Of a DNA stretch of 64,000 nt, positions 3,595-49,330 are shown one piece after another; positions within the stretch are counted from its first letter, which is position 1; each line of letters starts with the position of its first letter. The translations under genes were made by a program, and so were the position numbers. The notes beneath the pieces are model-generated. The model worked only from the letters and a program-made list of their open reading frames with translations, was not told where the DNA came from and made no database searches. Source of the DNA: Verrucomicrobiota bacterium (lineage in GTDB: Bacteria; Verrucomicrobiota; Verrucomicrobiia; CAIQCK01); the NCBI GenBank assembly GCA_026397915.1, contig JAPLTX010000020.1, forward strand, positions 3,299-67,298, read 5' to 3'.

Positions 3595-4142
3595 GTGCTA
3601 CAGACCCCACGGTGACTTTGACGCGCGACTGCGAGGCGGTGATGGTGCCGTCCGGCGCGACGGTGACACTGCAAAAAGGCGGACAGGTCGTCATCACCCA
3701 GTCGCTCGGCGGCACGTTCACGGTCGTGGTGAACGGCAACATGTTCCGCATCGCCGGCAAGGACGCCGACGCCATCGGCCGCGAGTCGCCCGCTGCGCCC
3801 GCTCAGACCGCGTCCGCGCCCGGTGGCCCCGTGGACGAGAAGTTGCTCTGGGCGCAGATGAAGACTTGTTTCGACCCGGAGATTCCCGTCAACGTCGTGG
3901 ATCTCGGCCTCATCTACGACTGCAAGGTTTCGCCGCTGCCCGCCGGCGGTAACCGCGTGGACGTGAAGATGACGCTCACCGCGCCCGGCTGCCCGATGGC
4001 CGGATCGATGGCCGCCGACGTGAAGACGAAACTCGAAACCGTTCCCGGCGTCACCGAAGTGAACGTGGACGTCGTCTGGGAGCCGCCGTGGAACCAGCAG
4101 ATGATGACCGAGGCGGCGAAACTGCAGCTCGGTTTGATGTGA
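3591..4142 (+). CDS. DUF59/MIP18-family Fe-S assembly protein (SufT-like) with an ~80-aa N-terminal extension
   Basis: ATG at 3591 overlaps the sufU stop (ATGA). The C-terminal half (CFDPEIPVNVVDLGLIYDC…TLTAPGCPMAG…) is DUF59-like. The listed ORF start at 3498 lies in another gene's 3' end and is less likely. Confidence 0.7.
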   Translation: MSATDPTVTLTRDCEAVMVPSGATVTLQKGGQVVITQSLGGTFTVVVNGNMFRIAGKDADAIGRESPAAPAQTASAPGGPVDEKLLWAQMKTCFDPEIPVNVVDLGLIYDCKVSPLPAGGNRVDVKMTLTAPGCPMAGSMAADVKTKLETVPGVTEVNVDVVWEPPWNQQMMTEAAKLQLGLM

Positions 4143-6095: not shown

Positions 6096-8657
6096 ATGAA
6101 GAACATTCGCACATACAATGTTGTCAGCACGCTGCCCGAGGAGTTGCGCGGGTTGCAGACGCTGGCTAACAATCTTTGGTGGTCTTGGGACGCGGAAGCG
6201 ACCGCGCTGTTCGAGCAACTCGACCCGGCGCTCTGGCAGTCGGTCTATCACAATCCGATCCTGCTGCTGGCGAAAATTGACTACAAACACTTCAAGGCTG
6301 CCAAGGCGGACCGCGGCTTTATGGACCGGCTGAAACGCATCGTGGGCCGGCTGGAGCGTTACATGACGGAGCCGGCGTGGTTTCAGCGAAAATACGACGG
6401 CAGCGGTGCGCCTTGTTACGCTTATTTTTCGTTGGAGTTCGGCCTCCACGAATGCCTGCCGATTTACTCCGGCGGCCTCGGCGTGCTGGCGGGCGATCAT
6501 CTCAAGAGCGCCAGCGATCTCGGTGTGCCGCTGGTCGGCGTCGGGTTGATCTACCGGCGAGGTTATTTTCACCAGTATCTCAACGCCGACGGCTGGCAGC
6601 AGGAGTTTTATCCGGATAACGATTTCTCCGCCATGCCACTCTCTCTCGTCCGTGACGCCGGGAACAAGCCGGTCATCATCTCCGTGGACATGCCGGACCG
6701 CAAGGTCCATGCCCAGATTTGGAAGGTGCAGGTCGGGCGCGTGCCGCTTTATTTGCTCGACTCGAACATCGAATTGAACGCGCCCGCAGATCGCGAAATC
6801 ACGGCGACGCTTTACGGCGGCGACCACGACATGCGGATGCGGCAGGAAATCCTGCTCGGCATCGGCGGGGTGCGTGCGTTGCAGGCGCTCGGCATCCGGC
6901 CGACGGTGTGCCACATGAACGAGGGCCACTCGGCGTTTCTCGGCTTGGAACGTATCCGGATCATGATGAAGGAGCAGGGGGTGTCGTTCGCCGAGGCGCG
7001 CGAGGCGATCTCGGCGGGCACGGCGTTCACGACGCACACGCCGGTGCCGGCGGGCATTGACGTGTTTCACGCGGACATGGTCGAACACTACTTCCACGGT
7101 TTCCGCGGCGAGCTGGGCCTGGAGCGCCACGATTTTCTCGCGCTGGGCCGGCACAATCCGCACGACCATCACGAAGGGTTCAACATGGCCGTGCTTTGCA
7201 TCCACCTCTCGGCCAAGCGTAACGGCGTCAGCCAGCTTCATGGCAGCGTCTCGCGCAAAATGTGGAACCGTCTCTGGCCTGAGGTGCCGACGCAGGAGGT
7301 GCCCATTGAGGCGATTACCAACGGTGTCCACACACAGACCTGGCTCTCGCGCGACATCGCGGCGTTGCTGGATACCTACATGGGTGAGCGTTGGCGCAAG
7401 GACCTCACCGATCAGGTTGCTTGGCAGGCCATCAGCAAAGTTCCCGACGCCGAACTGTGGAAGACGCACCAGCAGCGGCGCGAGAAGCTTGTCGCTTATG
7501 CGCGGGTCCGGTTGCATCAGCAGCTCACACGCCGCTCAGCGCCGCCGGCCGAGCTGGCCGTCGCCGCCGAGGCGCTCGATCCGAACGTGCTCACCATCGG
7601 TTTTGCGCGGCGCTTCGCCACCTACAAGCGCGCCACGCTCCTGCTGCGCGACCCGGAACGGTTGAAGAAGCTCGTCAACAACCCCGACCGGCCGGTGCAG
7701 ATCATCATCGCCGGCAAGGCCCATCCCCACGACGGTCCCGGCAAGGAACTGATGCGCCAGATCGTCCGGTTCATCCGCCAGCCGGAGTTTGCGAAGCGCA
7801 TCATTTTCATCGAGGACTACGACGTCAACGTGGCCCGCTACATGACCCAAGGCTGCGACGTGTGGCTCAACAACCCGCGCCGGCCGCTCGAAGCCAGTGG
7901 CACCAGCGGCATGAAGGCCGCCGTCAACGGCGTCCTCAACGTCAGCATCCTTGACGGCTGGTGGTGCGAGGCTGATTGCGCCAACGCCGAGAACGGCTGG
8001 GCCATCGGCAACGGCGAGGAACACGCCGACCCCGGGTATCAGGATGAGGTCGAGGGCCGCGCTCTCTATGACCTGCTGGAGAGGGAAATCGTCCCGGCGT
8101 TCTATGAGCGCGACAAGCACCAGTTGCCGTCGCAATGGGTTGCCCGGATGAAAAACTCCATCCGCACCCTCGGCCCGGCCTTCAACACCGACCGCATGCT
8201 CCAGCAATACGCCGACCAGTGCTACGTGCCGCTCGGCCAGCGTTACGAGCGGCTCACGGCCAACCGGCTCGAAGCCACGCGCCACCTGTTGGAGCGCAAG
8301 CGCCACATGGCCGCGCACTGGAATCGCATCCAGCTCGCTGCGGTGGAAACGGCGAACACCGACACGTTCTCCATTTTTTCGGAGATGCCCGTCGCCATTA
8401 CGTTGCGGCTGGACGGTCTCAGCCCCGAACAGGTGACCGTGCAAGTTTGCTACGGCCCCGTCGGAGCCGAAGGCAAACTCGAACACATCTCCCACGCCCC
8501 GATGAAGCTGGAGCAGTCCTATCCCGACGGCGCGCACCGGTATGTCGGCACCGTCCCGTGTCAGGAGACCGGTCGCCACGGCTTTGCCATCCGTGTCCTG
8601 CCGCACCATCCTGACCTCGGCAATCCCTTCGACACCGGGTTGGTGTTCTGGGGATAG
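6096..8657 (+). CDS. glgP: Alpha-glucan (glycogen/maltodextrin) phosphorylase, GT35 family
   Basis: Pyridoxal-phosphate-site motif EASGTSGMK. The N-terminus NLWWSWD…LDP.LW and the ~850-aa length are typical of the alpha-glucan phosphorylase subfamily. Confidence 0.9.
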   Translation: MKNIRTYNVVSTLPEELRGLQTLANNLWWSWDAEATALFEQLDPALWQSVYHNPILLLAKIDYKHFKAAKADRGFMDRLKRIVGRLERYMTEPAWFQRKYDGSGAPCYAYFSLEFGLHECLPIYSGGLGVLAGDHLKSASDLGVPLVGVGLIYRRGYFHQYLNADGWQQEFYPDNDFSAMPLSLVRDAGNKPVIISVDMPDRKVHAQIWKVQVGRVPLYLLDSNIELNAPADREITATLYGGDHDMRMRQEILLGIGGVRALQALGIRPTVCHMNEGHSAFLGLERIRIMMKEQGVSFAEAREAISAGTAFTTHTPVPAGIDVFHADMVEHYFHGFRGELGLERHDFLALGRHNPHDHHEGFNMAVLCIHLSAKRNGVSQLHGSVSRKMWNRLWPEVPTQEVPIEAITNGVHTQTWLSRDIAALLDTYMGERWRKDLTDQVAWQAISKVPDAELWKTHQQRREKLVAYARVRLHQQLTRRSAPPAELAVAAEALDPNVLTIGFARRFATYKRATLLLRDPERLKKLVNNPDRPVQIIIAGKAHPHDGPGKELMRQIVRFIRQPEFAKRIIFIEDYDVNVARYMTQGCDVWLNNPRRPLEASGTSGMKAAVNGVLNVSILDGWWCEADCANAENGWAIGNGEEHADPGYQDEVEGRALYDLLEREIVPAFYERDKHQLPSQWVARMKNSIRTLGPAFNTDRMLQQYADQCYVPLGQRYERLTANRLEATRHLLERKRHMAAHWNRIQLAAVETANTDTFSIFSEMPVAITLRLDGLSPEQVTVQVCYGPVGAEGKLEHISHAPMKLEQSYPDGAHRYVGTVPCQETGRHGFAIRVLPHHPDLGNPFDTGLVFWG

Positions 8658-40732: not shown

Positions 40733-41125
40733 ATGAAAGTCTCCAAGGAAGCTCGTCATGTCGCCCGGTCGCTTTATCGCGACAGCCTGACGGACGGGCG
40801 GCTTGACGAAACGAAGGTCCGCACGATCGTGAGCGGGCTTTGCGCGGCCAAGCCGCGCGAGTTGATCCCGATCCTGAAGACCTACGAGCGGCTGGTGCGG
40901 TTGGAGATTGAGCGCAACACCGCGCGCGTCGAGAGTGCCGCCGCGCTGGACACGGCGATGCAGCAGCAGATTACCGGCCAGTTGCAGCAGATTTACCGGC
41001 GGCCCATCGCCGCCGAATTTGGAGTGAACCCGGAGTTGATCGGCGGCGTGCGCGTCCGCGTCGGCAGCGACGTGTGGGACGGCAGCGTGGCCAACCGGCT
41101 GCGGGAGTTGGGCGCAGCGTTGTAA
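40733..41125 (+). CDS. atpH: F0F1 ATP synthase subunit delta (OSCP), short form
   Basis: C-terminal OSCP-like motif (…[30 protein letters not shown]…); operon position. Confidence 0.78.
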
Positions 41126-41141
41126 GCAGGAAACCGTTTTT

Positions 41142-42674
41142 ATGGCGAACATCCTTCAAGAAATCGAACAACAGATCGCCGGCGCCAAGCGCGGCGTCGC
41201 CAAGCAGAACGTCGGCACCGTCCGAGAAATCGGCGACGGCGTGGCCAAGATCGAGGGCCTCACCGATGCGATGCTGAACGAGATGATAGATTTCGGCAAC
41301 GACATCTACGGCATCGCGCTCAACCTCGAAGAGACCGAGGTCGGCGCGATCATCCTCGGCGAATACACGCACATCAAGGAAGGCATGGAATGCCGCACCA
41401 CCGGCCGGCTCCTTAGCGTGCCCGTCGGCAAGGGTCTGCTCGGCCGCGTCGTCAACTCCATCGGCATGCCGCTCGACGGCAAAGGCCCGGTCAAGTCCGA
41501 CACGCTTTATCCCGTCGAGAAAATCGCCCCCGGCATCATCAAGCGCCGCTCGGTCAGTCAGCCCGTGCAGACCGGCATCATGGCCGTGGACGCGATGATC
41601 CCGATCGGCCGCGGCCAGCGCGAGTTGATCATCGGCGACCGCTCCACCGGCAAGACGACCATCGGCATTGACACGATCATCAACCAAGCCCGCCTGAACC
41701 GCGCCGCGGAGCAGGCCGGCGACAAGAGCGTTCGGCCGCTCTACTGCATCTACGTCGCCATCGGCCAGAAGCAGTCCAACATCGTCCGCGTCACCAACGT
41801 CCTCGAAGAGCAGGGCGCGATGCCTTACACCATCGTCGTCGCGGCGTCCGCCGCCGACACGGCCACCAACCAGTATCTCGCGCCGTTCGCCGGCGCGGCG
41901 ATGGGTGAGTGGTTCATGGACAATGGCATGGACGCGCTGATCATCTTCGACGACCTCTCCAAGCACGCCGTCGCTTATCGGCAGGTGTCGCTGGTGTTGC
42001 GCCGTCCGTCCGGCCGCGAGGCGTATCCGGGCGACGTGTTTTATCTGCACAGCCGCTTGCTGGAACGTTCCGCGCGTCTGAGCGAGAAGGCAGGCAACGG
42101 CTCGCTCACCGCGCTGCCGATCATCGAGACGCAGCTCGGCGACGTGTCCGCTTACATCCCGACGAACGTCATCTCCATTACCGACGGCCAGATTTATCTG
42201 GAAACCGATTTGTTCTACCAGGGCATCCGCCCCGCCATCTCGGTCGGCTTGTCGGTGTCGCGCGTCGGTTCCGCCGCGCAGGTCAAGGCGATGAAGCAGG
42301 TCGCCGGCCGCATCAAGGGCGAACTGGCCCAGTTCCGCGAGCTGGCGGCGTTCGCGCAGTTCGGCAGCGATCTCGATGCCAAGACGCAGGCGCAGCTCGA
42401 ACGCGGCAAGCGCATCGTGGAGGTCTTCAAGCAGCCGCAATACAACCCGGTGCCGGTTGAGGTGCAGGTCGGCGTCCTCTGGGCCGTTCAGAACGGCTTC
42501 TTCGACGATGTCTCCGTGGACAAGCTCAAAGATTGCCAGGCTAAGATGACCGACTACCTCACGTCCCGGAAGTCGGCGCTGATGGCGAAGATTTTGAAAG
42601 AAAAGGCGCTCAACGACGCGTTGATCGCCGAGCTGAAGGCCGCCGTCACAGAGTTCAAACAGACGTATCGGTAA
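41142..42674 (+). CDS. atpA: F0F1 ATP synthase subunit alpha
   Basis: P-loop GDRSTGKTT and typical alpha-subunit sequence throughout; 510 aa. Confidence 0.95.
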
Positions 42675-42733
42675 ACCTGGCGAAACGAAGACTTGAAGTC
42701 GCAATTTGCGACTTCAAGTTCCAAGACCAAGAT

Positions 42734-43330
42734 ATGGACTACGTAACAGCAATCAAACGCAAGGAGAGGATCGAGAACCTCATCCTGACCGTTCGTGGTC
42801 AGCGGGTGATGCTGGATTCGGATTTGGCCAAGATTTACAGAGTGACGACGAAGCAGCTTAATCAACAGTTGAAACGCAATCAGAGTCGTTTCCCAAAGGA
42901 CTTCGCGTTTCAACTTACGCGGCAAGAAGTTATGATCTTGAGGTCACAGATTGTGACCTCAAGTTTGCATGGTGGCCGGCGGTATCTCCCCTGGGTCTTC
43001 ACCGAGCACGGCGCGATCATGCTCGCCACCGTCCTGAACAGCCCTGTGGCGGTTGAGGCCAGTGTCCGCGTCGTCCGGGCCTTCGTCTATATGCGCGAGC
43101 AACTGGCGAAGCTCGGCAAGATAAGCTCGGCCGACGTGATGAAGAAGCTCGCCGAACTGGAAGGCCGCGTCGGCGAACACGACGAAGCCATCCGTCTCAT
43201 TTTCACGGCGCTCAGGCAGATGCTTGAACCAGCCGCGCCCGCCGAGGAAGCGCCGAAGCGGGAAATCGGTTTTCACGTGAGAGAAGCCCGCGGACGCTAC
43301 GTCGTCCGAACCAAGCGCAAACGATTTTAG
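42734..43330 (+). CDS. ORF6N/KilA-N-domain DNA-binding protein (phage antirepressor-like), inserted between atpA and atpG
   Basis: N-terminal …IRGQRVMLDSDLAKIY.V…K.LNQQ.KRN..RFP.DF.FQLT…E is the ORF6N (PF10543) signature. The 5' half has lower GC than the flanking atp genes. Confidence 0.75.
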   Translation: MDYVTAIKRKERIENLILTVRGQRVMLDSDLAKIYRVTTKQLNQQLKRNQSRFPKDFAFQLTRQEVMILRSQIVTSSLHGGRRYLPWVFTEHGAIMLATVLNSPVAVEASVRVVRAFVYMREQLAKLGKISSADVMKKLAELEGRVGEHDEAIRLIFTALRQMLEPAAPAEEAPKREIGFHVREARGRYVVRTKRKRF

Positions 43331-43333
43331 ACC

Positions 43334-44212
43334 ATGGCCAGCCCCCGCGATTTACGCCGACGCATCAAGTCGGTCAAGAACACGTCGCAGATCACCAAAG
43401 CGATGCAGATGGTGGCTGCCTCGAAGATGCGCAAGGCGCAGCAAGGCGCGCTCGCGGGCCGGCCTTATGCCGCGCTCATGAACACCGTGCTCGCTGAGGT
43501 CACCGCCAACATCGGCGACTTCAAGCATCCGCTGCTGGAGAAGCACCACACCGGCAAGCGCGCCGTGATCCTCATCAGCACCGACCGCGGCCTCTGCGGC
43601 GCGCTCAACAGCAACCTGATGCGTGAGGCGGCCAAGCTCGACAAGGCGACGACGCTCTACATCTGCGCCGGCCGTAAAGGCTCGCAGTTCATCGCCCGCA
43701 CCAAGCGCCAGCTCGCGGCGGAGTTCACCTACAAGGACACGCCGCAGTTTAGCGAGGCGCGCGCCATCGCGAAGTTTGCGCAGGACCTTTTCACCAAGGG
43801 CGAAGTGGACGGTGTGGACGTGCTCTACACGCGGTTCGTCTCGACGCTGAACCAGAAGCATGAACTCCGCCCGCTGCTGCCGGTTGGCGAACTGCAGGCC
43901 GTCGAGGCGGGCATGAACGGCGACCGCACAGGCGCGACGCTGGAGCGGACCGGCGTCGAGTATCTGTTCGAGCCGTCGTCTGGCGAGGTGCTCGGCACGC
44001 TGCTGCCGCACTACGTGAACTATCTCGTTTTCCAGATGCTGCTCGAAGCGCGCGCCAGCGAGCATAGCGCCCGCATGGTGGCGATGAAGAACGCCACCGA
44101 CAACGCCGCGCAGCTCATCAAGGACCTGACGATCGAATACAACAAGATGCGCCAGGCCAGCATCACAAATGAACTCTTGGAGATTGCATCCGCCCAAATG
44201 GCGACGGCTTAA
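43334..44212 (+). CDS. atpG: F0F1 ATP synthase subunit gamma
   Basis: N-terminal RRRIKSVKNTSQITKAMQMVAASKMRKAQ and C-terminal NELLEIASAQMA motifs. Confidence 0.92.
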   Translation: MASPRDLRRRIKSVKNTSQITKAMQMVAASKMRKAQQGALAGRPYAALMNTVLAEVTANIGDFKHPLLEKHHTGKRAVILISTDRGLCGALNSNLMREAAKLDKATTLYICAGRKGSQFIARTKRQLAAEFTYKDTPQFSEARAIAKFAQDLFTKGEVDGVDVLYTRFVSTLNQKHELRPLLPVGELQAVEAGMNGDRTGATLERTGVEYLFEPSSGEVLGTLLPHYVNYLVFQMLLEARASEHSARMVAMKNATDNAAQLIKDLTIEYNKMRQASITNELLEIASAQMATA

Positions 44213-44221
44213 GGTTAGTGA

Positions 44222-45631
<1,410 letters not shown>

Positions 45632-45668: not shown

Positions 45669-46115
45669 ATGGCCTCAACGCTCAAACTCGAAATCGTCAC
45701 GCCGGAAGCCGTCGCCTACTCCGAGACGGTGGACATGGTCGTCCTGCCCGGCGCGGCGGGCGAACTCGGCGTGCTGGCCGGTCACGAGCCGCTCATGACC
45801 ACCGTCGTGCCCGGCGAGTTGCGCGTCATCCGGGGCAGCGAGGAAACCGTCATGGCCATCGGCTCCGGTTTCGCCGAGATCACGGGCGAGACCGTGCGCG
45901 TCCTGGCGGACATGGCTCTCCGCGCCGAGGAAATTGACGAAGCCGCCGCCATCGAGGCCCGCAAACGCGCCGAGCAGAGACTGGCCGAGAAACTGAGCGA
46001 CGAGGAAATCGTCACCGTCGAGGCGTCGTTGCAGAAGGCGCTGATCCAACTCGAAGTCAAACGCCGCTACCGCGGCCAGCCCACCGCCCACGGCCAGCAC
46101 TCACATCAGAAGTAG
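45669..46115 (+). CDS. atpC: F0F1 ATP synthase subunit epsilon
   Basis: N-terminal beta-sandwich (LKLEIVTPE…VVLPGAAGELGVLAGHEPLMT) and a C-terminal helical hairpin; end of the atp operon. Confidence 0.85.
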   Translation: MASTLKLEIVTPEAVAYSETVDMVVLPGAAGELGVLAGHEPLMTTVVPGELRVIRGSEETVMAIGSGFAEITGETVRVLADMALRAEEIDEAAAIEARKRAEQRLAEKLSDEEIVTVEASLQKALIQLEVKRRYRGQPTAHGQHSHQK

Positions 46116-46161
46116 CCGCCGAGGCTTGGCGGGATATTGATCGGGGTGTCTGTTAGCAATG

Positions 46162-46908
46162 CTAAGGTTGGAGTTCGTTGGCATTGACCACATTGCTTGC
46201 CACTACTCGCTGGTCGAACTCGTGGATCAAGTTTGTAATCGCAACACGTGCTTTCTGAAGCACGTCATGGTCAAGTTGAATCTTCTGGTCCACTGTCGCG
46301 CCGAAGGCTGGAAACGAATCACAAAATGCCTGATCAGCTTTCCCATCCGCGTGAATTAAAAGATGCCTTATCTCTAAATAAGGAAGCGCGGCGTCAATGG
46401 TTGCTTGCCGAACACCCAGATTAAGTTTTGTATTCATCTTTTGGAGTAAACTTTTCGTGCTCTTTTCGTTTTCGAGCTTCCTGAATACAGACTTTGAAAC
46501 CAACTTTACTACGTTGTTCCATGTCCCGGCAGTAAGGATGTCATTTGCTTCGAACTCTACCTTATGTTCGCCAATCAGGCGGTTTGGATCGATCCCCTTT
46601 CTCGCCGCTGCCTCCAGAAGTTCAGCCATATACTGGACCATATCTTCGTAAATGTCCTTGATATAGGATGCACACAACGTCGCCTTCAAATGATTCGCTG
46701 CAAGTTCTCGGTTGTTCGGTGTCTTGCCCCGCGCCGCAAGTCGAGGGTGTAAATGGGGGTCAACAGCATCGAAAATATGCGCAGCTCCTCTGGAGCTTAG
46801 CGCCCCTTGTGTGATAGCGATCTTCAGAACATCAGCAAGTTCGATGTCCGCCTCAAAATGGGCAGCACGATTAAGAAAACGAACGAGGAATTTGGTCTTC
46901 ATGGGCAT
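46162..46908 (-). CDS. HEPN-like protein (Rx4H motif), candidate abortive-infection/toxin RNase; second gene of a low-GC two-gene module
   Basis: 248 aa with LEIRHLLIHADG (R-x4-H) near the C-terminus, as in HEPN nucleases. Local GC is ~45% against ~65% in the flanks. It follows 55 nt after the 46964..47521 gene. Confidence 0.55.
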   Translation of the reverse strand: MPMKTKFLVRFLNRAAHFEADIELADVLKIAITQGALSSRGAAHIFDAVDPHLHPRLAARGKTPNNRELAANHLKATLCASYIKDIYEDMVQYMAELLEAAARKGIDPNRLIGEHKVEFEANDILTAGTWNNVVKLVSKSVFRKLENEKSTKSLLQKMNTKLNLGVRQATIDAALPYLEIRHLLIHADGKADQAFCDSFPAFGATVDQKIQLDHDVLQKARVAITNLIHEFDQRVVASNVVNANELQP

Positions 46909-46963
46909 GGGGCATTCCTTTTATAGGGAAATCTCTCGCGAATTATGCAACCTTTCAGCGCAA

Positions 46964-47521
46964 TCATTCGATTGGGTTCTCGAAAAGAGGGAACTTCATT
47001 TCATAGCTGTGCCCAAGATGTCTTCGCGCATCAGCATTATTGGATGCGTTTCTAAAAGCATTACCTAACTTTTCTCGAAGAGTCATGCTCTTGATTAAAC
47101 CCAGAAAGAACTCATTCTCCAACACCAATTCGTGCGCAGCCAATTCAGTCAGGTCTTCATCCGCCACCTTCACCCATTGACCACATTTGATGAAACCATC
47201 TCCACCGGGGAGAATCTCAAGTTTGGCACGATTCTCTATTAGCCAATGAGTAATTGCCATTCGTGCAATGATTTTCTGGATATCGAACAAGCTACGTCCG
47301 GCTATTTTTTCGACAGTCATCGGGTAACCAGACTCTCTCCCGACGCGATGCAACAACTTACCATGGTAATCGAATAGCCATATGAACCGGCTGATCATCT
47401 TTACTTCAACGGGACCGCCTAGACTGCAAACTTTGGATGATTCTTCCAGTAATAGAAACGCAGTCCCAATGTCTGGAGATAACTCACACGCTGATATCTC
47501 GTGAAAAAAGGGTTTGTTCAT
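46964..47521 (-). CDS. Hypothetical protein, first gene of the low-GC two-gene module
   Basis: 185-aa intact ORF with low GC; co-oriented with and immediately upstream of the HEPN-like gene. No recognisable motif. Confidence 0.5.
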   Translation of the reverse strand: MNKPFFHEISACELSPDIGTAFLLLEESSKVCSLGGPVEVKMISRFIWLFDYHGKLLHRVGRESGYPMTVEKIAGRSLFDIQKIIARMAITHWLIENRAKLEILPGGDGFIKCGQWVKVADEDLTELAAHELVLENEFFLGLIKSMTLREKLGNAFRNASNNADARRHLGHSYEMKFPLFENPIE

Positions 47522-47548
47522 TGTTAGTTCCAGTCTTGTCTTTATGAA

Positions 47549-47580
47549 CGCCCCGGCGGGCTTTGACTCCCGCCGGGGCG
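47549..47580 (-). terminator. GC-rich hairpin (12-bp stem) downstream of the 47605..48306 gene
   Basis: CGCCCCGGCGGG-cttgact-CCCGCCGGGGCG perfect inverted repeat sits between convergent/tandem minus-strand genes. It has no strong U-tract. Confidence 0.4.
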
Positions 47581-47604
47581 CGTTGATTCTTCGTTGCTAC
47601 TCGC

Positions 47605-48427: not shown

Positions 48428-48725
48428 TCATGTGACGGCGATCAAAAAGCATGTGCTGCCGGCCAAAGAACATGTGTCGGACAAGAGAAGGCATGTGTCG
48501 AAATCAAAATGGTATGTGCTGTCGGCCGGAAAGCATGTGTCCGATGAAAAAAAGCATGTATCGAAACCCAAACGGCATGTGCCGCCGGCCGGAAAGTATG
48601 TGTCGGACGAGAGAAGGCATGTATCGAAAACCAAACGGTATGTGCTGCCGGCCAGAAAGCATGTGCCGGATGAAAAAAAGCATGTATCGAAATCAAAACG
48701 ACACATGCTTTTTCTCGTCCGATAC
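48428..48725. repeat. Array of ~13 tandem 21-bp repeats with a (g/a)CATGT core, organised as 4 copies of a 63-bp super-repeat (three 21-bp variants A/B/C)
   Basis: CATGT cores recur at 48451, 48472, 48493, 48514, 48535, … 48682 with exact 21-bp spacing. The variants cycle as gcatgtgctgccggccRgaaa / gcatgtgtcggaYgaRaRaag / gcatgtatcgaaaWcaaaMgg. All six frames stay open across the array. Confidence 0.85.
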
Positions 48726-48901
48726 ATGACGAAACGCCGCCGTGAGTGACTTTTTCGGGCTGGGAATGGATGTTTTTTGCTCCAACACACGATCAACGAG
48801 CGATTTGCGCGACTTTTCCCAAAAAACAGCTTGTTTGGTCAAAAAACGACACTACTCTCCGCCTAGGACTCCGAACCCATCATTCCAACCGAGGAACCCA
48901 C

Positions 48902-49330
48902 ATGTCCTTCCATGCCGACCTGCCCGTGAACGGCACCAAGACCGACGCCAACCTCCTGCGCGAGAACTTCAACGCGCTCAAAGATGAGATAGACGCCGCG
49001 CCCACCACCCAGCAAGTCACCGACGCCATCAACAGCGCCGTCGCCGACAAACCGACGACCGGGGCGATGAACACCGCGATCAACAATGCCGTGGCCGACA
49101 AACCGACCACGCAACAAGTCACCGACGCCATCAACGGCGCCGTGGCTGACCGGCCGACCAACGACGCGATGACCCTCGCCGTCAGCGACGCCATCAACGG
49201 CACGCCGCGCAACGTGGACAGCATCGGCACGCTCGACATCGTCATGAGCGACCCGCCCACGCAGGGCGAAGTCCAGCTCCTCCTCGACAACTACAACAAC
49301 CTCGTCCGGGCGTTGCGGAGAAATATCTGA
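48902..49330 (+). CDS. Repeat-containing protein, phage tail-fibre-like (tandem ~19-aa QQVTDAINxAVADKPTT repeats)
   Basis: ATG with a GAGGAA Shine-Dalgarno-like upstream; three direct peptide repeats; begins ~180 nt after the repeat array. Confidence 0.55.
   Translation: MSFHADLPVNGTKTDANLLRENFNALKDEIDAAPTTQQVTDAINSAVADKPTTGAMNTAINNAVADKPTTQQVTDAINGAVADRPTNDAMTLAVSDAINGTPRNVDSIGTLDIVMSDPPTQGEVQLLLDNYNNLVRALRRNI

What the first reader, a model, noticed from the sequence alone, without database searches (positions are those of the whole stretch)
42691..43330. ORF6N/KilA-N DNA-binding gene inserted between atpA and atpG, with two near-identical 27-bp palindromes
atpA is normally followed directly by atpG. 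Here a 198-aa ORF6N-domain gene, a family typical of phage antirepressors, splits them. ACTTGAAGTCGCAAtTTGCGACTTCAAGT (42691-42719) lies in the short gap before its start. A second copy of the same pattern, CTTGAGGTCACAgaTTGTGACCTCAAG (42937-42963), lies inside its coding region about 245 bp away. Consensus TTGARGTCRCA…TGYGACYTCAA looks like paired operator or recombination sites. The element may auto-regulate or be mobile within an essential operon.
Basis: partly seen in the sequence, partly recalled or inferred. Interest (0 to 1): 0.6.

Follow-up and report, generated by a model that had tools for sequence, protein, structure and literature searches.

The report
Conserved coding palindrome in ORF6N gene
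A small accessory gene wedged long ago into the ATP-synthase operon of a soil/freshwater bacterial lineage carries a perfect DNA palindrome inside its own coding sequence; nearly every sampled relative across many bacterial phyla and viral contigs keeps one at the same spot, even when this changes the protein, and what it does is unknown.

Summary
A 198-aa ORF6N gene (42734-43330) lies between atpA and atpG. One perfect palindrome is in its 59-nt leader (42691-42719) and one is in codons 69-77 (42937-42963). These are the only two copies in 64 kb.

The gene is not a recent or mobile insertion. The same arrangement occurs in 17 other Verrucomicrobiota loci. Those genes form one clade and co-diverge with AtpA, with dN/dS 0.31. 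One sister lineage lost the gene cleanly.

The palindromes are not private operators. They are a family-wide signature. Across 65 genes sampled by protein alignment, 11.2 of 12 arm pairs are kept. The same peptides with the genes' own codon usage would give 4.6. Compensating changes alter amino acids, and distant relatives with a different peptide still have a palindrome at that site. A third of loci carry extra copies just upstream.

Each copy keeps its own arms complementary, but copies within one locus do not track each other. There is no G·U bias. This points to DNA-level self-pairing, not base-specific reading by a dimer.

The protein matches PADLOC PDC-S05, a candidate phage-defence family. 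I found no published description of the palindrome. Its function remains inferred.

The parts
41142..42674 (+). atpA (F1 alpha), the upstream flank of the inserted unit
   Evidence: ORF listed; 98% identical to the L002 AtpA in tblastn.
42675..43330 (+). Inserted unit of 656 nt: a 59-nt leader plus the ORF6N gene. It occupies what is a 3-nt atpA-atpG spacer in the sister lineage.
   Evidence: The empty junction in L085 reads ...cggTAA-CGC-ATGgcc. The filled junction here reads ...cggTAA-[656 nt]-ACC-ATGgcc. There is no target-site duplication.
42691..42719 (.). Leader palindrome: 14-bp arms with a 1-nt centre (25-nt core at 42693-42717). Its 25-nt core ends 16 nt before the ATG.
   Evidence: 47.5 bits; -14.6 kcal/mol, z -7.1. 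Equivalent leader copies occur in L002, L003, L016 and L083/84.
42734..43330 (+). ORF6N-family gene, 198 aa. It has an N-terminal ORF6N domain (residues 16-100) and a helical C-terminal part. It is a PADLOC PDC-S05-type protein.
   Evidence: Pfam E 9e-34; PADLOC PDC-S05 E 7e-52; PHROG 'anti-repressor' E 6e-23; dN/dS 0.31 against L002.
42937..42963 (.). Internal coding palindrome: 12-bp arms with a 3-nt centre (25-nt core at 42938-42962). It encodes I-L-R-S-Q-I-V-T-S-S (residues 68-77).
   Evidence: (11/12 pairs against 4.1 expected for this peptide, p < 0.0005).
43334..44212 (+). atpG (F1 gamma). It starts 3 nt after the ORF6N stop codon.
   Evidence: No promoter-like site and no + strand terminator between 42300 and 43600.

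Best explanation
What it is. A non-essential ORF6N / PDC-S05-type accessory gene, with its short leader, was inserted between atpA and atpG in an ancestor of a Verrucomicrobiota clade. It has since been inherited vertically, read through with the atp operon, and occasionally lost or truncated.

The two palindromes are copies of a family-wide DNA-level self-complementary element. One near-universal copy is written into the codons of the domain, at residues 69-77 here. About a third of genes also carry one or more copies just upstream of the start codon.

Shown: each copy's two arms are kept complementary at the nucleotide level, against codon usage and at the price of amino-acid changes.

Inferred, most likely mechanism: the element works as a hairpin- or cruciform-forming DNA site with a conserved centre (CA-NNN-TG). 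This site is recognised by the ORF6N protein itself, through structure plus central bases and not by base-specific reading of the whole half-site. That would tie the protein to its own gene and let it set its own level and/or insulate itself inside the host operon. Replication template-switching probably helps keep the arms perfect.
For: Old and fixed:
- The same junction is occupied in 14 genome loci and in L082 and L083/84.
- All 15 atp-embedded proteins on the tree form one clade.
- They co-diverge with AtpA, and dN/dS is 0.31 against 0.07-0.12 for the atp genes.
- L085, which lacks the gene, is nested among gene-bearing lineages, so its empty site is a loss.

Nucleotide-level selection:
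- 65 sites sampled by protein alignment keep 11.2/12 pairs, against 4.55 for the same peptides with the genes' own codon usage. 63/65 have p <= 0.01.
- Leu is TTG in 60/65 sites (21% elsewhere). The second Ser is TCA in 57/65 (8% elsewhere).
- 95.1% of cells are paired, against 24-43% for slid registers. 8/12 pairs show two-sided changes. 64 compensated cells against 14.6 in shuffles, 0/500.
- Compensations change residues: S..A to F..E, C..G or Y..G; K/R..T to I..I; L..S to M..A.
- Distant viral relatives with unrelated peptides still have a 10-12/12 palindrome at the site.

Tied to the gene:
- 143 hits in 590 kb against 0.8 in shuffles: 88 internal, 44 within 500 nt upstream, 7 downstream, 4 far.
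- 27/81 loci have an upstream copy, usually ending 8-55 nt before the ATG.

Structure, not base reading:
- Outer arms differ between copies but stay complementary.
- Upstream copies are no closer to their own internal copy than to those of other loci (6.40 against 6.36, p 0.57).

DNA level, not sense RNA:
- A·C/C·A and G·T/T·G mismatches are equally frequent: 19 against 13 in internal copies and 12 against 13 in extra-genic copies.

Protein plausibly binds nucleic acid: weak winged-helix-type fold matches. The palindrome-encoded peptide sits at a helix end and in the one low-confidence loop, which is tolerant of change.
Against: - There is no direct evidence that the protein binds the palindrome. 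The link is co-location only.
- In operon-embedded copies with no promoter of their own, a DNA-bound protein would act as a roadblock to atpGDC transcription. That seems costly, and an mRNA-level effect would fit this context better.
- The L083/84 lineage keeps both palindromes intact although half the protein is deleted. The palindromes may therefore persist without the protein.
- Some upstream copies lie in decayed duplicates of the coding sequence (L048). These need not be functional sites.
- Array spacings (27-60 nt) show no helical phasing.
- Self-binding does not explain why the site must sit at one fixed position inside the domain.
Confidence: 0.4

Rival explanations
1. RNA hairpins. 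The palindromes act in the polycistronic mRNA. The leader hairpin sits next to the start codon and the internal hairpin lies about 200 nt into the ORF. Together they would throttle translation of the accessory gene and/or act as REP-like barriers that shape decay of the atp transcript.
For: Both are very stable stem-loops. The proximal upstream copy lies 8-55 nt before the start codon in most loci, 16 nt here. The gene has no promoter or terminator of its own and is embedded in operons (atp, nuo, cas), where an RNA-level control would not disturb the neighbours. Compensatory arm changes are the classic signature of a helix.
Against: G·U is not tolerated more than A·C on the sense strand, in either coding or extra-genic copies. 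No Rfam family matches. Stand-alone copies in phage contigs and copies downstream of genes have no consistent orientation or mRNA context. The leader palindrome has a 1-nt centre, so the top pairs cannot form in a hairpin.
Confidence: 0.2
2. Classical paired operators. A homodimer reads both half-sites base-specifically on duplex DNA. Binding at the leader site and the internal site, 245 bp apart, loops the DNA and represses transcription.
For: The protein is a predicted DNA-binding domain with a helical C-terminal part that could dimerise. Upstream plus internal site pairs about 240-330 bp apart recur in many loci. The motif residues R-S-Q are typical base-contacting residues (inference).
Against: Positions 5, 6, 8 and 9 of the half-site vary widely, yet remain symmetric within a copy and are not shared among copies of one locus. 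Outer arms of extra-genic copies are unrelated in sequence but complementary. Two thirds of genes have no upstream copy. There is no promoter to repress in the atp context.
Confidence: 0.15
3. Self-perpetuating palindrome without a function of its own. An ancestral inverted repeat in the domain is kept perfect by replication template-switching, which copies one arm onto the other. Extra-genic copies are what remains of decayed tandem or partial gene duplicates.
For: Template switching can create and maintain perfect stems in single events (PMC8794818). This model predicts independent self-correction of each copy, no strand or G·U bias, and multi-base paired changes, all of which are seen. The change in L002's leader copy, TTGAAG/CTTCAA to ATGCGG/CCGCAT, is an example. 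L048's upstream copies lie in fragments resembling coding sequence. Tandem ORF6N genes exist (L025, L048, L071). Both palindromes survive in the deleted L083 gene.
Against: Persistence across phyla and in relatives with unrelated peptides is hard to explain without selection. So is the extreme codon bias and the fixed position. Proximal copies cluster just before start codons. The same sequence was written into a tolerant segment of a phage helicase. The frameshifted L046 copy is already decaying, at 10/12.
Confidence: 0.15
4. Recombination or mobility site. The palindromes are ends or target sites that let the leader-plus-gene unit move as a cassette into intergenic spacers of operons.
For: The family is scattered among unrelated neighbourhoods in many phyla. 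It is often slotted tightly between co-directional genes: nuoEF|nuoG, cas1|cas2-3, before hsdM. The atp junction shows clean presence and absence.
Against: No transposase or integrase recurs among 107 neighbours. There is no target duplication, and only one of the two palindromes is at an end of the unit. The atp copies are monophyletic and co-diverge with the host. There are no near-identical copies at different sites. Most genes have only the internal copy.
Confidence: 0.07

Closest known systems
Coding palindromes in hairworm (Nematomorpha) mitochondrial genes (PMC6649704)
   Same: Perfect inverted repeats lie inside functional protein-coding sequence. Protein function and stem pairing are preserved together.
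   Different: Those are many long repeats (up to 284 bp) spread over the genes of a few genomes. Here there is one short (25-31 nt) palindrome at one fixed position of one protein domain. It is conserved across bacterial phyla and viral contigs and has satellite copies outside the gene.
REP/BIME repetitive extragenic palindromes
   Same: Short, stable, imperfect-to-perfect palindromes occur, sometimes in composite arrays between genes of an operon. Arms co-vary.
   Different: REPs are extragenic, dispersed in hundreds of copies per genome, and linked to RAYT transposases. This element has 2 copies in 64 kb, both at one gene. It is primarily intragenic and follows a protein family, not a genome.
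Auxiliary operators or binding sites inside coding sequence (lacO2 in lacZ, galOI in galE, ori-lambda iterons inside gene O; from general knowledge)
   Same: A cis site for a DNA-binding protein lies inside an ORF and is paired with an upstream site a few hundred bp away. In phage lambda the site is inside the binding protein's own gene.
   Different: Those sites are read base-specifically and are not maintained by compensatory arm changes. None is conserved at a fixed codon position across a whole protein family.
PADLOC candidate defence family PDC-S05 / RhuM-like proteins
   Same: The window protein matches three PDC-S05 profiles (E 7e-52 to 1e-35). One PDC-S05 representative reduced T7 and T5 plating about 1000-fold in E. 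coli (bioRxiv 10.1101/2024.09.26.614923).
   Different: The tested representative was annotated with a RhuM domain. The short 190-aa ORF6N form, its operon embedding and its palindrome were not examined. No mechanism is known.
Phage antirepressors with ORF6N / Bro-N domains (lactococcal P335-type phages)
   Same: The N-terminal domain is homologous. The lactococcal genes carry a near-palindrome, CTGGGGTCGCAA-A-TTACGACCTCAG (10/12), at the equivalent peptide.
   Different: Those genes sit in prophage lysis-lysogeny switch regions and carry extra C-terminal domains. The window gene sits in a housekeeping operon with no prophage context.
Free-standing homing-endonuclease genes between conserved phage genes (analogy, from general knowledge)
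   Same: A small accessory ORF is slotted precisely between highly conserved essential genes. Presence and absence vary among close relatives.
   Different: There is no nuclease domain here. The distribution is largely vertical, and there is no evidence of homing.

Membership tests
Pfam ORF6N domain family (PF10543) | Significant match to the family HMM above the gathering score | tested here: met
   116 bits against a cut-off of 27.8, E 9e-34, residues 16-100 covering profile positions 2-86 of 86.
PADLOC PDC-S05 candidate defence system | Match to the PDC-S05 protein profiles | tested here: met
   PDLC04869 E 7e-52, PDLC04856 E 2e-48, PDLC04849 E 1e-35.
PADLOC PDC-S05 candidate defence system | Confers phage resistance | not testable with these tools
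   Only a RhuM-annotated representative from another organism has been tested, in E. coli.
PADLOC PDC-S05 candidate defence system | Location in a defence island | tested here: not met
   The window gene lies in the atp operon. Among 107 neighbours of relatives, only 3 HsdM and one cas1/cas2-3 context were seen.
Phage antirepressor (Ant-type) | Encoded in a prophage immunity or early region next to repressor and cro genes | tested here: not met
   The flanks are atpA and atpG. The subfamily gives only 4 weak hits in 50,697 phage records.
Phage antirepressor (Ant-type) | Binds and inactivates a phage repressor | not testable with these tools
   The PHROG label 'anti-repressor' is annotation by homology only.
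REP / BIME elements | Extragenic, many dispersed copies per genome, associated RAYT | tested here: not met
   Two copies in 64 kb, both at the ORF6N gene, one of them intragenic. In 590 kb of other genomes, 139 of 143 copies lie in or within 500 nt of an ORF6N gene.
Intrinsic (rho-independent) terminator | GC-rich hairpin followed by a T-run on the transcribed strand | tested here: not met
   There is no + strand terminator-like site in 42300-43600. The leader hairpin is followed by GTTCCAAG.
Integron gene cassette (attC) | An imperfect attC palindrome of 57-141 nt at the 3' end of a promoterless ORF, with an IntI integrase nearby | tested here: not met
   The palindrome is 25-31 nt, perfect, and lies 5' of and inside the ORF. 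No integrase recurs among neighbours.
IS200/IS605-type or other hairpin-ended transposon | Subterminal hairpins at both ends plus a TnpA/TnpB gene | tested here: not met
   There is a hairpin near one end only. No transposase was found in the unit or recurrently among neighbours, and there is no target duplication.
Known structured RNA family (Rfam 15) | Covariance-model match | tested here: not met
   No match with E <= 1 in 41000-45000 on either strand.
Homodimer operator pair | Half-site bases shared among all sites served by one protein | tested here: not met
   Upstream copies are no closer to their own internal copy than to those of other loci (6.40 against 6.36, p 0.57). Outer arms differ between copies of one locus.
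Homodimer operator pair | Protein binds the duplex site | not testable with these tools
   Needs EMSA or footprinting.

The most novel reading that the evidence does not exclude
ORF6N/Bro-N-type genes carry an obligatory DNA hairpin/cruciform element written into their own domain-coding sequence. This would be a dual code in which DNA pairing dictates correlated amino-acid changes. The element would be the working part of a widespread defence or regulatory module, for example as the protein's self-recognition site or as a bait sensed when phage junction-cutting or hairpin-binding proteins appear. Such genes would exploit essential operons (atp, nuo) for constitutive expression and retention.
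Probability: 0.3. Interest if true: 0.85.

Novelty: new variant of a known kind. Interest (0 to 1): 0.7.

Why it matters
1. This would be a rare and very clean case in which a nucleic-acid pairing constraint sits inside a conserved protein motif and visibly drives amino-acid covariation across phyla. Part of what looks like a conserved peptide motif in the ORF6N domain would then be a DNA signal.

2. It gives a concrete, testable handle on an uncharacterised but very abundant family. More than 7,700 relatives were found at E <= 1e-10. The family matches PADLOC PDC-S05, for which antiphage activity has been reported. Synonymous recoding of 25 nt is a simple decisive experiment.

3. It shows that accessory, possibly defence-type genes can live for very long periods inside essential energy operons (atp, nuo), with clean loss in some lineages. 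This matters for operon evolution and for annotating 'insertions' in core operons.

4. For the original finding, it replaces 'mobile element with private operators' by 'ancient resident carrying a family-wide element'.

Tried and rejected
- Pseudogene fragment upstream. The leader reads NED-LKSQFATSS-SKTK, but similarity to the gene is limited to the 29-bp palindrome. Because the element is a palindrome, both strands give the same peptide, so the reading frame is not diagnostic.
- Other ORF6N copies or dispersed palindromes in the window: none.
- Known RNA families: none.
- Own promoter or terminator: none on the + strand.
- Partner genes or mobility genes: 158 Pfam families among 107 neighbours, with nothing recurrent.
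- Solved structures by sequence: only weak YTH-domain hits, E about 0.08-0.2. Not pursued.
- Fold search: no match with E <= 0.001. The best were Ski/Dachshund DHD, MarR and MerR, with TM about 0.3 relative to the query. The model is of moderate quality (pLDDT 67.7).
- Co-variation of upstream copies with their own internal copy: absent.
- Helical phasing of arrays: none apparent.
- Disrupted genes as a test of palindrome autonomy. The apparent stops in L044 and L064 are their true stop codons. Only L046 (frameshift, 10/12) and L083/84 (in-frame deletion, palindromes intact) are informative, and they point in opposite directions.
- Palindrome as an in-frame insertion in a phage SNF2 helicase: rejected. 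The segment is an in-place variable stretch.
- E. coli genomes: no copy.
- BRO-protein ssDNA binding, recalled from memory: I could not confirm it in the searchable library, so it is not used as evidence.
- Low-GC ORFs downstream of atpC: no Pfam or PADLOC hits.
Full report
**1. Observation**

The window carries a complete F1Fo operon on the + strand: atpB, E, F, H, then atpA (41142-42674), and atpG (43334-44212), atpD and atpC. Between atpA and atpG lies a 198-aa ORF (42734-43330). It matches Pfam ORF6N over residues 16-100 (E 9e-34).

A covariance model built from homologous sites of other genomes also finds only these two in the window. Both are strong hairpins as single strands, with z about -7.

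Two points were missed. The internal palindrome encodes the conserved ORF6N motif I-L-R-S-Q-I-V-T-S-S. The leader palindrome, read in frame, would spell L-K-S-Q-F-A-T-S-S. The similarity between the two copies is confined to the palindrome. The first half of the ORF is 47% GC, against about 64% for the operon.

**2. The gene is an old resident, not a recent insertion**

The host is a Verrucomicrobia MAG. A scan of one genome per species returned 80 loci with relatives of the protein. In 14 of them the gene lies between atpA and atpG. These come from MAGs labelled Chthoniobacterales, Chthoniobacter, Spartobacteria, Verrucomicrobiales and Verrucomicrobiia. AtpA identity is 73-98% (58% over the partial L009 fragment), and AtpG identity runs from 55% to 97%. 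Contigs of three further AtpG relatives show the same arrangement.

All 15 atp-embedded proteins on the tree form one clade in a tree of 79 family members. Their pairwise identities correlate with those of AtpA (Spearman 0.44, p 1e-5). Between the window and its closest relative L002, dN/dS is 0.31, against 0.07-0.12 for atpA, atpG and atpD.

In the Chthoniobacterales-type loci the ORF start overlaps the atpA stop codon (ATGA). Here the ORF ends 3 nt before the atpG start. No promoter-like site or + strand terminator is present. The simplest reading is co-transcription with the operon.

The gene is not universal.
- L085 (AtpG 90% identical) and a second contig (74%) have atpA directly followed by atpG.
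- On an AtpA+AtpD+AtpG tree, L085 is sister to the window+L002 pair and is nested among gene-bearing lineages. Its empty site is therefore a clean loss or an allelic replacement.
- Comparing empty and filled junctions defines the unit as 42675-43330, leader plus ORF, with no target duplication.
- L083/84, an abundant lake lineage, retains an in-frame deleted 105-aa version.

**3. The palindrome is a family-wide, nucleotide-level feature**

To avoid ascertainment bias, I took the site from every gene by protein alignment. Of 65 sites, 56 keep at least 11 of 12 possible pairs, and the mean is 11.2.

With each peptide held fixed and synonymous codons redrawn from the same gene's usage, the expectation is 4.55 pairs. 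63 of 65 sites have p <= 0.01. Leu is TTG in 60/65 sites (21% elsewhere in these genes). The second Ser is TCA in 57/65 (8% elsewhere).

The pair-count tool gives 95.1% paired cells, against 24-43% for slid registers. Eight of 12 pairs show two-sided changes. There are 64 compensated cells against 14.6 ± 3.0 in shuffles, and 0 of 500 shuffles reach that value.

The compensations change the protein:
- TCG/GCG (S..A) becomes TCA/GTG (S..V), TTT/GAA (F..E), TGC/GGT (C..G) or TAC/GGC (Y..G).
- AAG/ACT (K..T) becomes AGG/ACC (R..T), AGA/ATC (R..I) or AAA/ATT (K..I).
- TTG…TCA (L..S) becomes ATG…GCA (M..A).

Ten viral-contig relatives chosen by protein (38-55% identity) have quite different peptides at this position. 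Six of them still have a 10-12/12 palindrome there, for example AACTTATCACAGACTGTGATAAGTT encoding ELITDCDKF. Lactococcal P335-type phage antirepressors, which are Bro-N-like relatives, have CTGGGGTCGCAA-A-TTACGACCTCAG at the equivalent peptide. The conserved entity is therefore the DNA symmetry, not the peptide.

In the AlphaFold model the segment lies at the end of a helix and in the only low-confidence loop of the N-domain. This fits its tolerance of substitutions and of in-frame duplications of the motif (L010, L053, L035/45, L078).

**4. Extra copies**

A simple detector required at least 10/12 pairs with a CA-NNN-TG centre. It finds 143 copies in 590 kb of loci, against 0.8 in shuffles. 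Of these, 88 are inside ORF6N genes, 44 are within 500 nt upstream, 7 are within 500 nt downstream, and 4 are elsewhere.

27 of 81 loci have at least one upstream copy. The proximal copy usually ends 8-55 nt before the likely ATG; here the 25-nt core ends 16 nt before it.

In the atp clade, leader copies occur in the window, L002, L003, L016 and L083/84, with a degenerate one in L004. L002's copy, ATGCGGTCGCA-AAT-TGCGACCGCAT, differs from the window's at three outer positions. All three are compensated, in non-coding DNA.

Extra-genic copies share an inner core, GGTC(R)CA-AWT-TG(Y)GACC. Their outer arms vary (TTGAGG, ATGCGG, AGGTGG, ATCCGG, TCAAGG…) and remain complementary.

In L048 the upstream copies lie within 70-76-nt repeats that resemble a stretch of ORF6N coding sequence. 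Some extra copies are therefore decayed partial duplicates.

In IMG/VR the exact pattern occurs in 49 stretches, against about 0.2 expected by my own rough estimate. About half lie in ORF6N genes. The rest are stand-alone among ordinary phage genes. Four lie in frame in an SNF2/ResIII helicase. There the segment is an in-place variable stretch and not an insertion.

**5. What kind of element?**

Three tests discriminate between the models.
- (a) Within a locus, upstream copies are no more similar to their own internal copy than to the internal copies of other loci (6.40 against 6.36 ± 0.33, p 0.57). Yet each copy's arms match each other. A homodimer reading those bases would require all its sites to agree. 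Recent gene conversion would also make them agree. So the constraint is pairing within each copy.
- (b) On the sense strand, G·T/T·G mismatches are no commoner than A·C/C·A: 13 against 19 in internal copies and 13 against 12 in extra-genic copies. A selected RNA helix should tolerate G·U far better. A transition in duplex or cruciform DNA gives G·T on one strand and A·C on the other, which predicts the parity seen here.
- (c) Array spacings (27-60 nt) show no helical phasing.

Together these favour a DNA-level hairpin/cruciform-forming element with a conserved AT-rich centre. Replication template-switching is known to make and repair perfect stems in single events (PMC8794818). It probably contributes to arm homogenisation and is also the core of a no-function rival.

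**6. The protein and its contexts**

PADLOC profiles for PDC-S05 match at E 7e-52. PHROGs call the family 'anti-repressor'. NCBIfam has no model and the PDB has no sequence relative. The fold search gives only weak winged-helix-type hits. One PDC-S05 representative, annotated with a RhuM domain, reduced T7 and T5 plating about 1000-fold in E. coli (bioRxiv 10.1101/2024.09.26.614923). Transfer of that result to this short form is inference.

Neighbours of the non-atp relatives are extremely diverse: 158 Pfam families among 107 proteins. There is no recurrent partner and no mobility gene.

Several relatives are slotted tightly into other operons:
- between nuoEF and nuoG in L051 (gaps of 20 and 5 nt), and 5 nt after nuoEF in L066;
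- between cas1 and cas2-3 in L075;
- directly before hsdM in L040.

The subfamily is nearly absent from curated phage genomes and absent from E. coli.

**7. Most likely mechanism, and what is shown versus inferred**

Shown:
- The junction has been occupied for a long time and the gene is largely vertically inherited, under purifying selection, with occasional loss.
- A position-specific palindrome is maintained at the nucleotide level across the family.
- Satellite copies concentrate just upstream of the genes.
- Each copy is constrained by its own arm pairing.
- There is no RNA-type wobble bias.

Inferred (confidence about 0.4): the element is a structure-forming DNA site recognised by the ORF6N protein itself. 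Having one copy inside the gene and optional copies in the leader would give self-regulation or insulation of an accessory, possibly defence-type gene that rides on the atp operon's transcription.

Rivals:
- mRNA hairpins (0.2). These fit operon embedding and start-codon proximity better, but not the wobble test.
- Classical operator pair (0.15).
- Self-perpetuating palindrome with relic copies (0.15).
- Recombination or mobility site (0.07).

Two things argue against my preferred reading. A DNA roadblock would be costly inside an essential operon. And both palindromes survive in the half-deleted L083 gene.

**8. Novelty**

'ORF6N' occurs in 11 papers of the library. The two checked for this question do not mention a palindrome. 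A keyword search on KilA-N, palindrome, coding sequence and hairpin found nothing relevant to this family. Rfam has no such family.

The closest described phenomenon is the coding palindromes of hairworm mitochondria (PMC6649704). Those differ in scale, distribution and conservation.

I classify this as a new variant of a known kind: a cis-acting palindrome embedded in coding sequence. If the function proves to be what the novel case states, it would be considerably more interesting.

Noticed in passing
window 46100-47600: A low-GC segment (44-50% against about 64%) lies immediately downstream of atpC. It has two minus-strand ORFs (46162-46908, 248 aa; 46964-47521, 185 aa) with no Pfam or PADLOC match. 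It looks like foreign DNA next to the operon.
   Followed up: partly
window 48449-48700 and 49004-49150: Two tandem repeats. One has a 63-nt unit in 4 copies (80% matches), giving overlapping repetitive ORFs on both strands. The other has a 51-nt unit in 2.9 copies inside the ORF 48746-49330, giving a repeated ...TTQQVTDAINSAVADKP... peptide. There are no Pfam hits.
   Followed up: partly
L051:4001-4510 and L066:4001-4525: Other Verrucomicrobiota carry an ORF6N gene directly after a fused nuoEF gene. In L051 it lies between nuoEF and nuoG with gaps of 20 and 5 nt; in L066 only the upstream nuoEF flank (5-nt gap) was identified. This is a second essential energy operon hosting this family. The two proteins are not sisters in the tree.
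   Followed up: partly
L075:818-1330: In a Desulfobulbales MAG, an ORF6N gene is slotted between cas1 and cas2-3 of a type I-F CRISPR-Cas locus, with gaps of 2 and 20 nt.
   Followed up: no
L083/L084:2676-2993: This lineage carries an in-frame internal deletion of the atp-embedded gene (105 aa...GGRR|REIGFHV...). It was seen on 23 contigs. Both palindromes are kept intact, at 11/12 and 12/12.
   Followed up: partly
L096:997, L117:6499, L122:238, L124:1720: Phage-like contigs carry the palindrome in frame inside an SNF2/ResIII helicase of about 411 aa, where it reads LKSQFATSK or LKSHFATSK. In 120 homologs the segment is an in-place variable stretch, and many read (L/I)KSQFAT(S/T/L)K. Homolog DNA was not examined for palindromy.
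   Followed up: partly
L113:4389-4525; L106:9000-9046; L104:10889: Stand-alone palindromes and small arrays (three copies 53-59 nt apart in L113) occur in viral contigs, with no detectable ORF6N gene within 1.5 kb. Some are among T4-like genes such as Gp23, UvsY and dUTPase.
   Followed up: partly
L048:1979-2048, 3686-3755, 6862-6931: A 70-nt composite repeat occurs three times: a TTGA...TCAA palindrome, about 10 nt, then an AGGNGG...CCNCCT palindrome. It resembles ORF6N coding sequence. The same locus has an unrelated REP-like palindrome family, CAATTCTCTCACGGCCCGTGAGAGAATTG, in 5 copies.
   Followed up: partly
L025:1346-3376: Three ORF6N genes lie in tandem in a Nitrospiria genome, 45-54% identical to the query, each with its own palindrome variant. 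L048, L047 and L071 also have two copies.
   Followed up: no
L135:812-836; L136:3000-3024: Lactococcus phages 50902 and proPhi1 (35% GC) have a 10/12 near-palindrome with the same GGTCGCAAATT.CGACC core. It lies in the antirepressor gene of the early lytic operon, at the peptide KLGSQITTSG.
   Followed up: partly
window 42734-43327 (protein residues 43-98): The only PDB sequence hits are weak but consistent matches to YTH domains (10 of 14 hits, E 0.08-0.23) over the region that includes the motif. The fold search did not recover YTH.
   Followed up: no
L002:3963-3987 and L056:3881-3905: An identical 25-mer, ATGCGGTCGCAAATTGCGACCGCAT, occurs as the leader copy in a Verrucomicrobia atp locus and in an Elusimicrobia locus. 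Outer-arm variants seem to fall into a few recurrent types and are not random.
   Followed up: no
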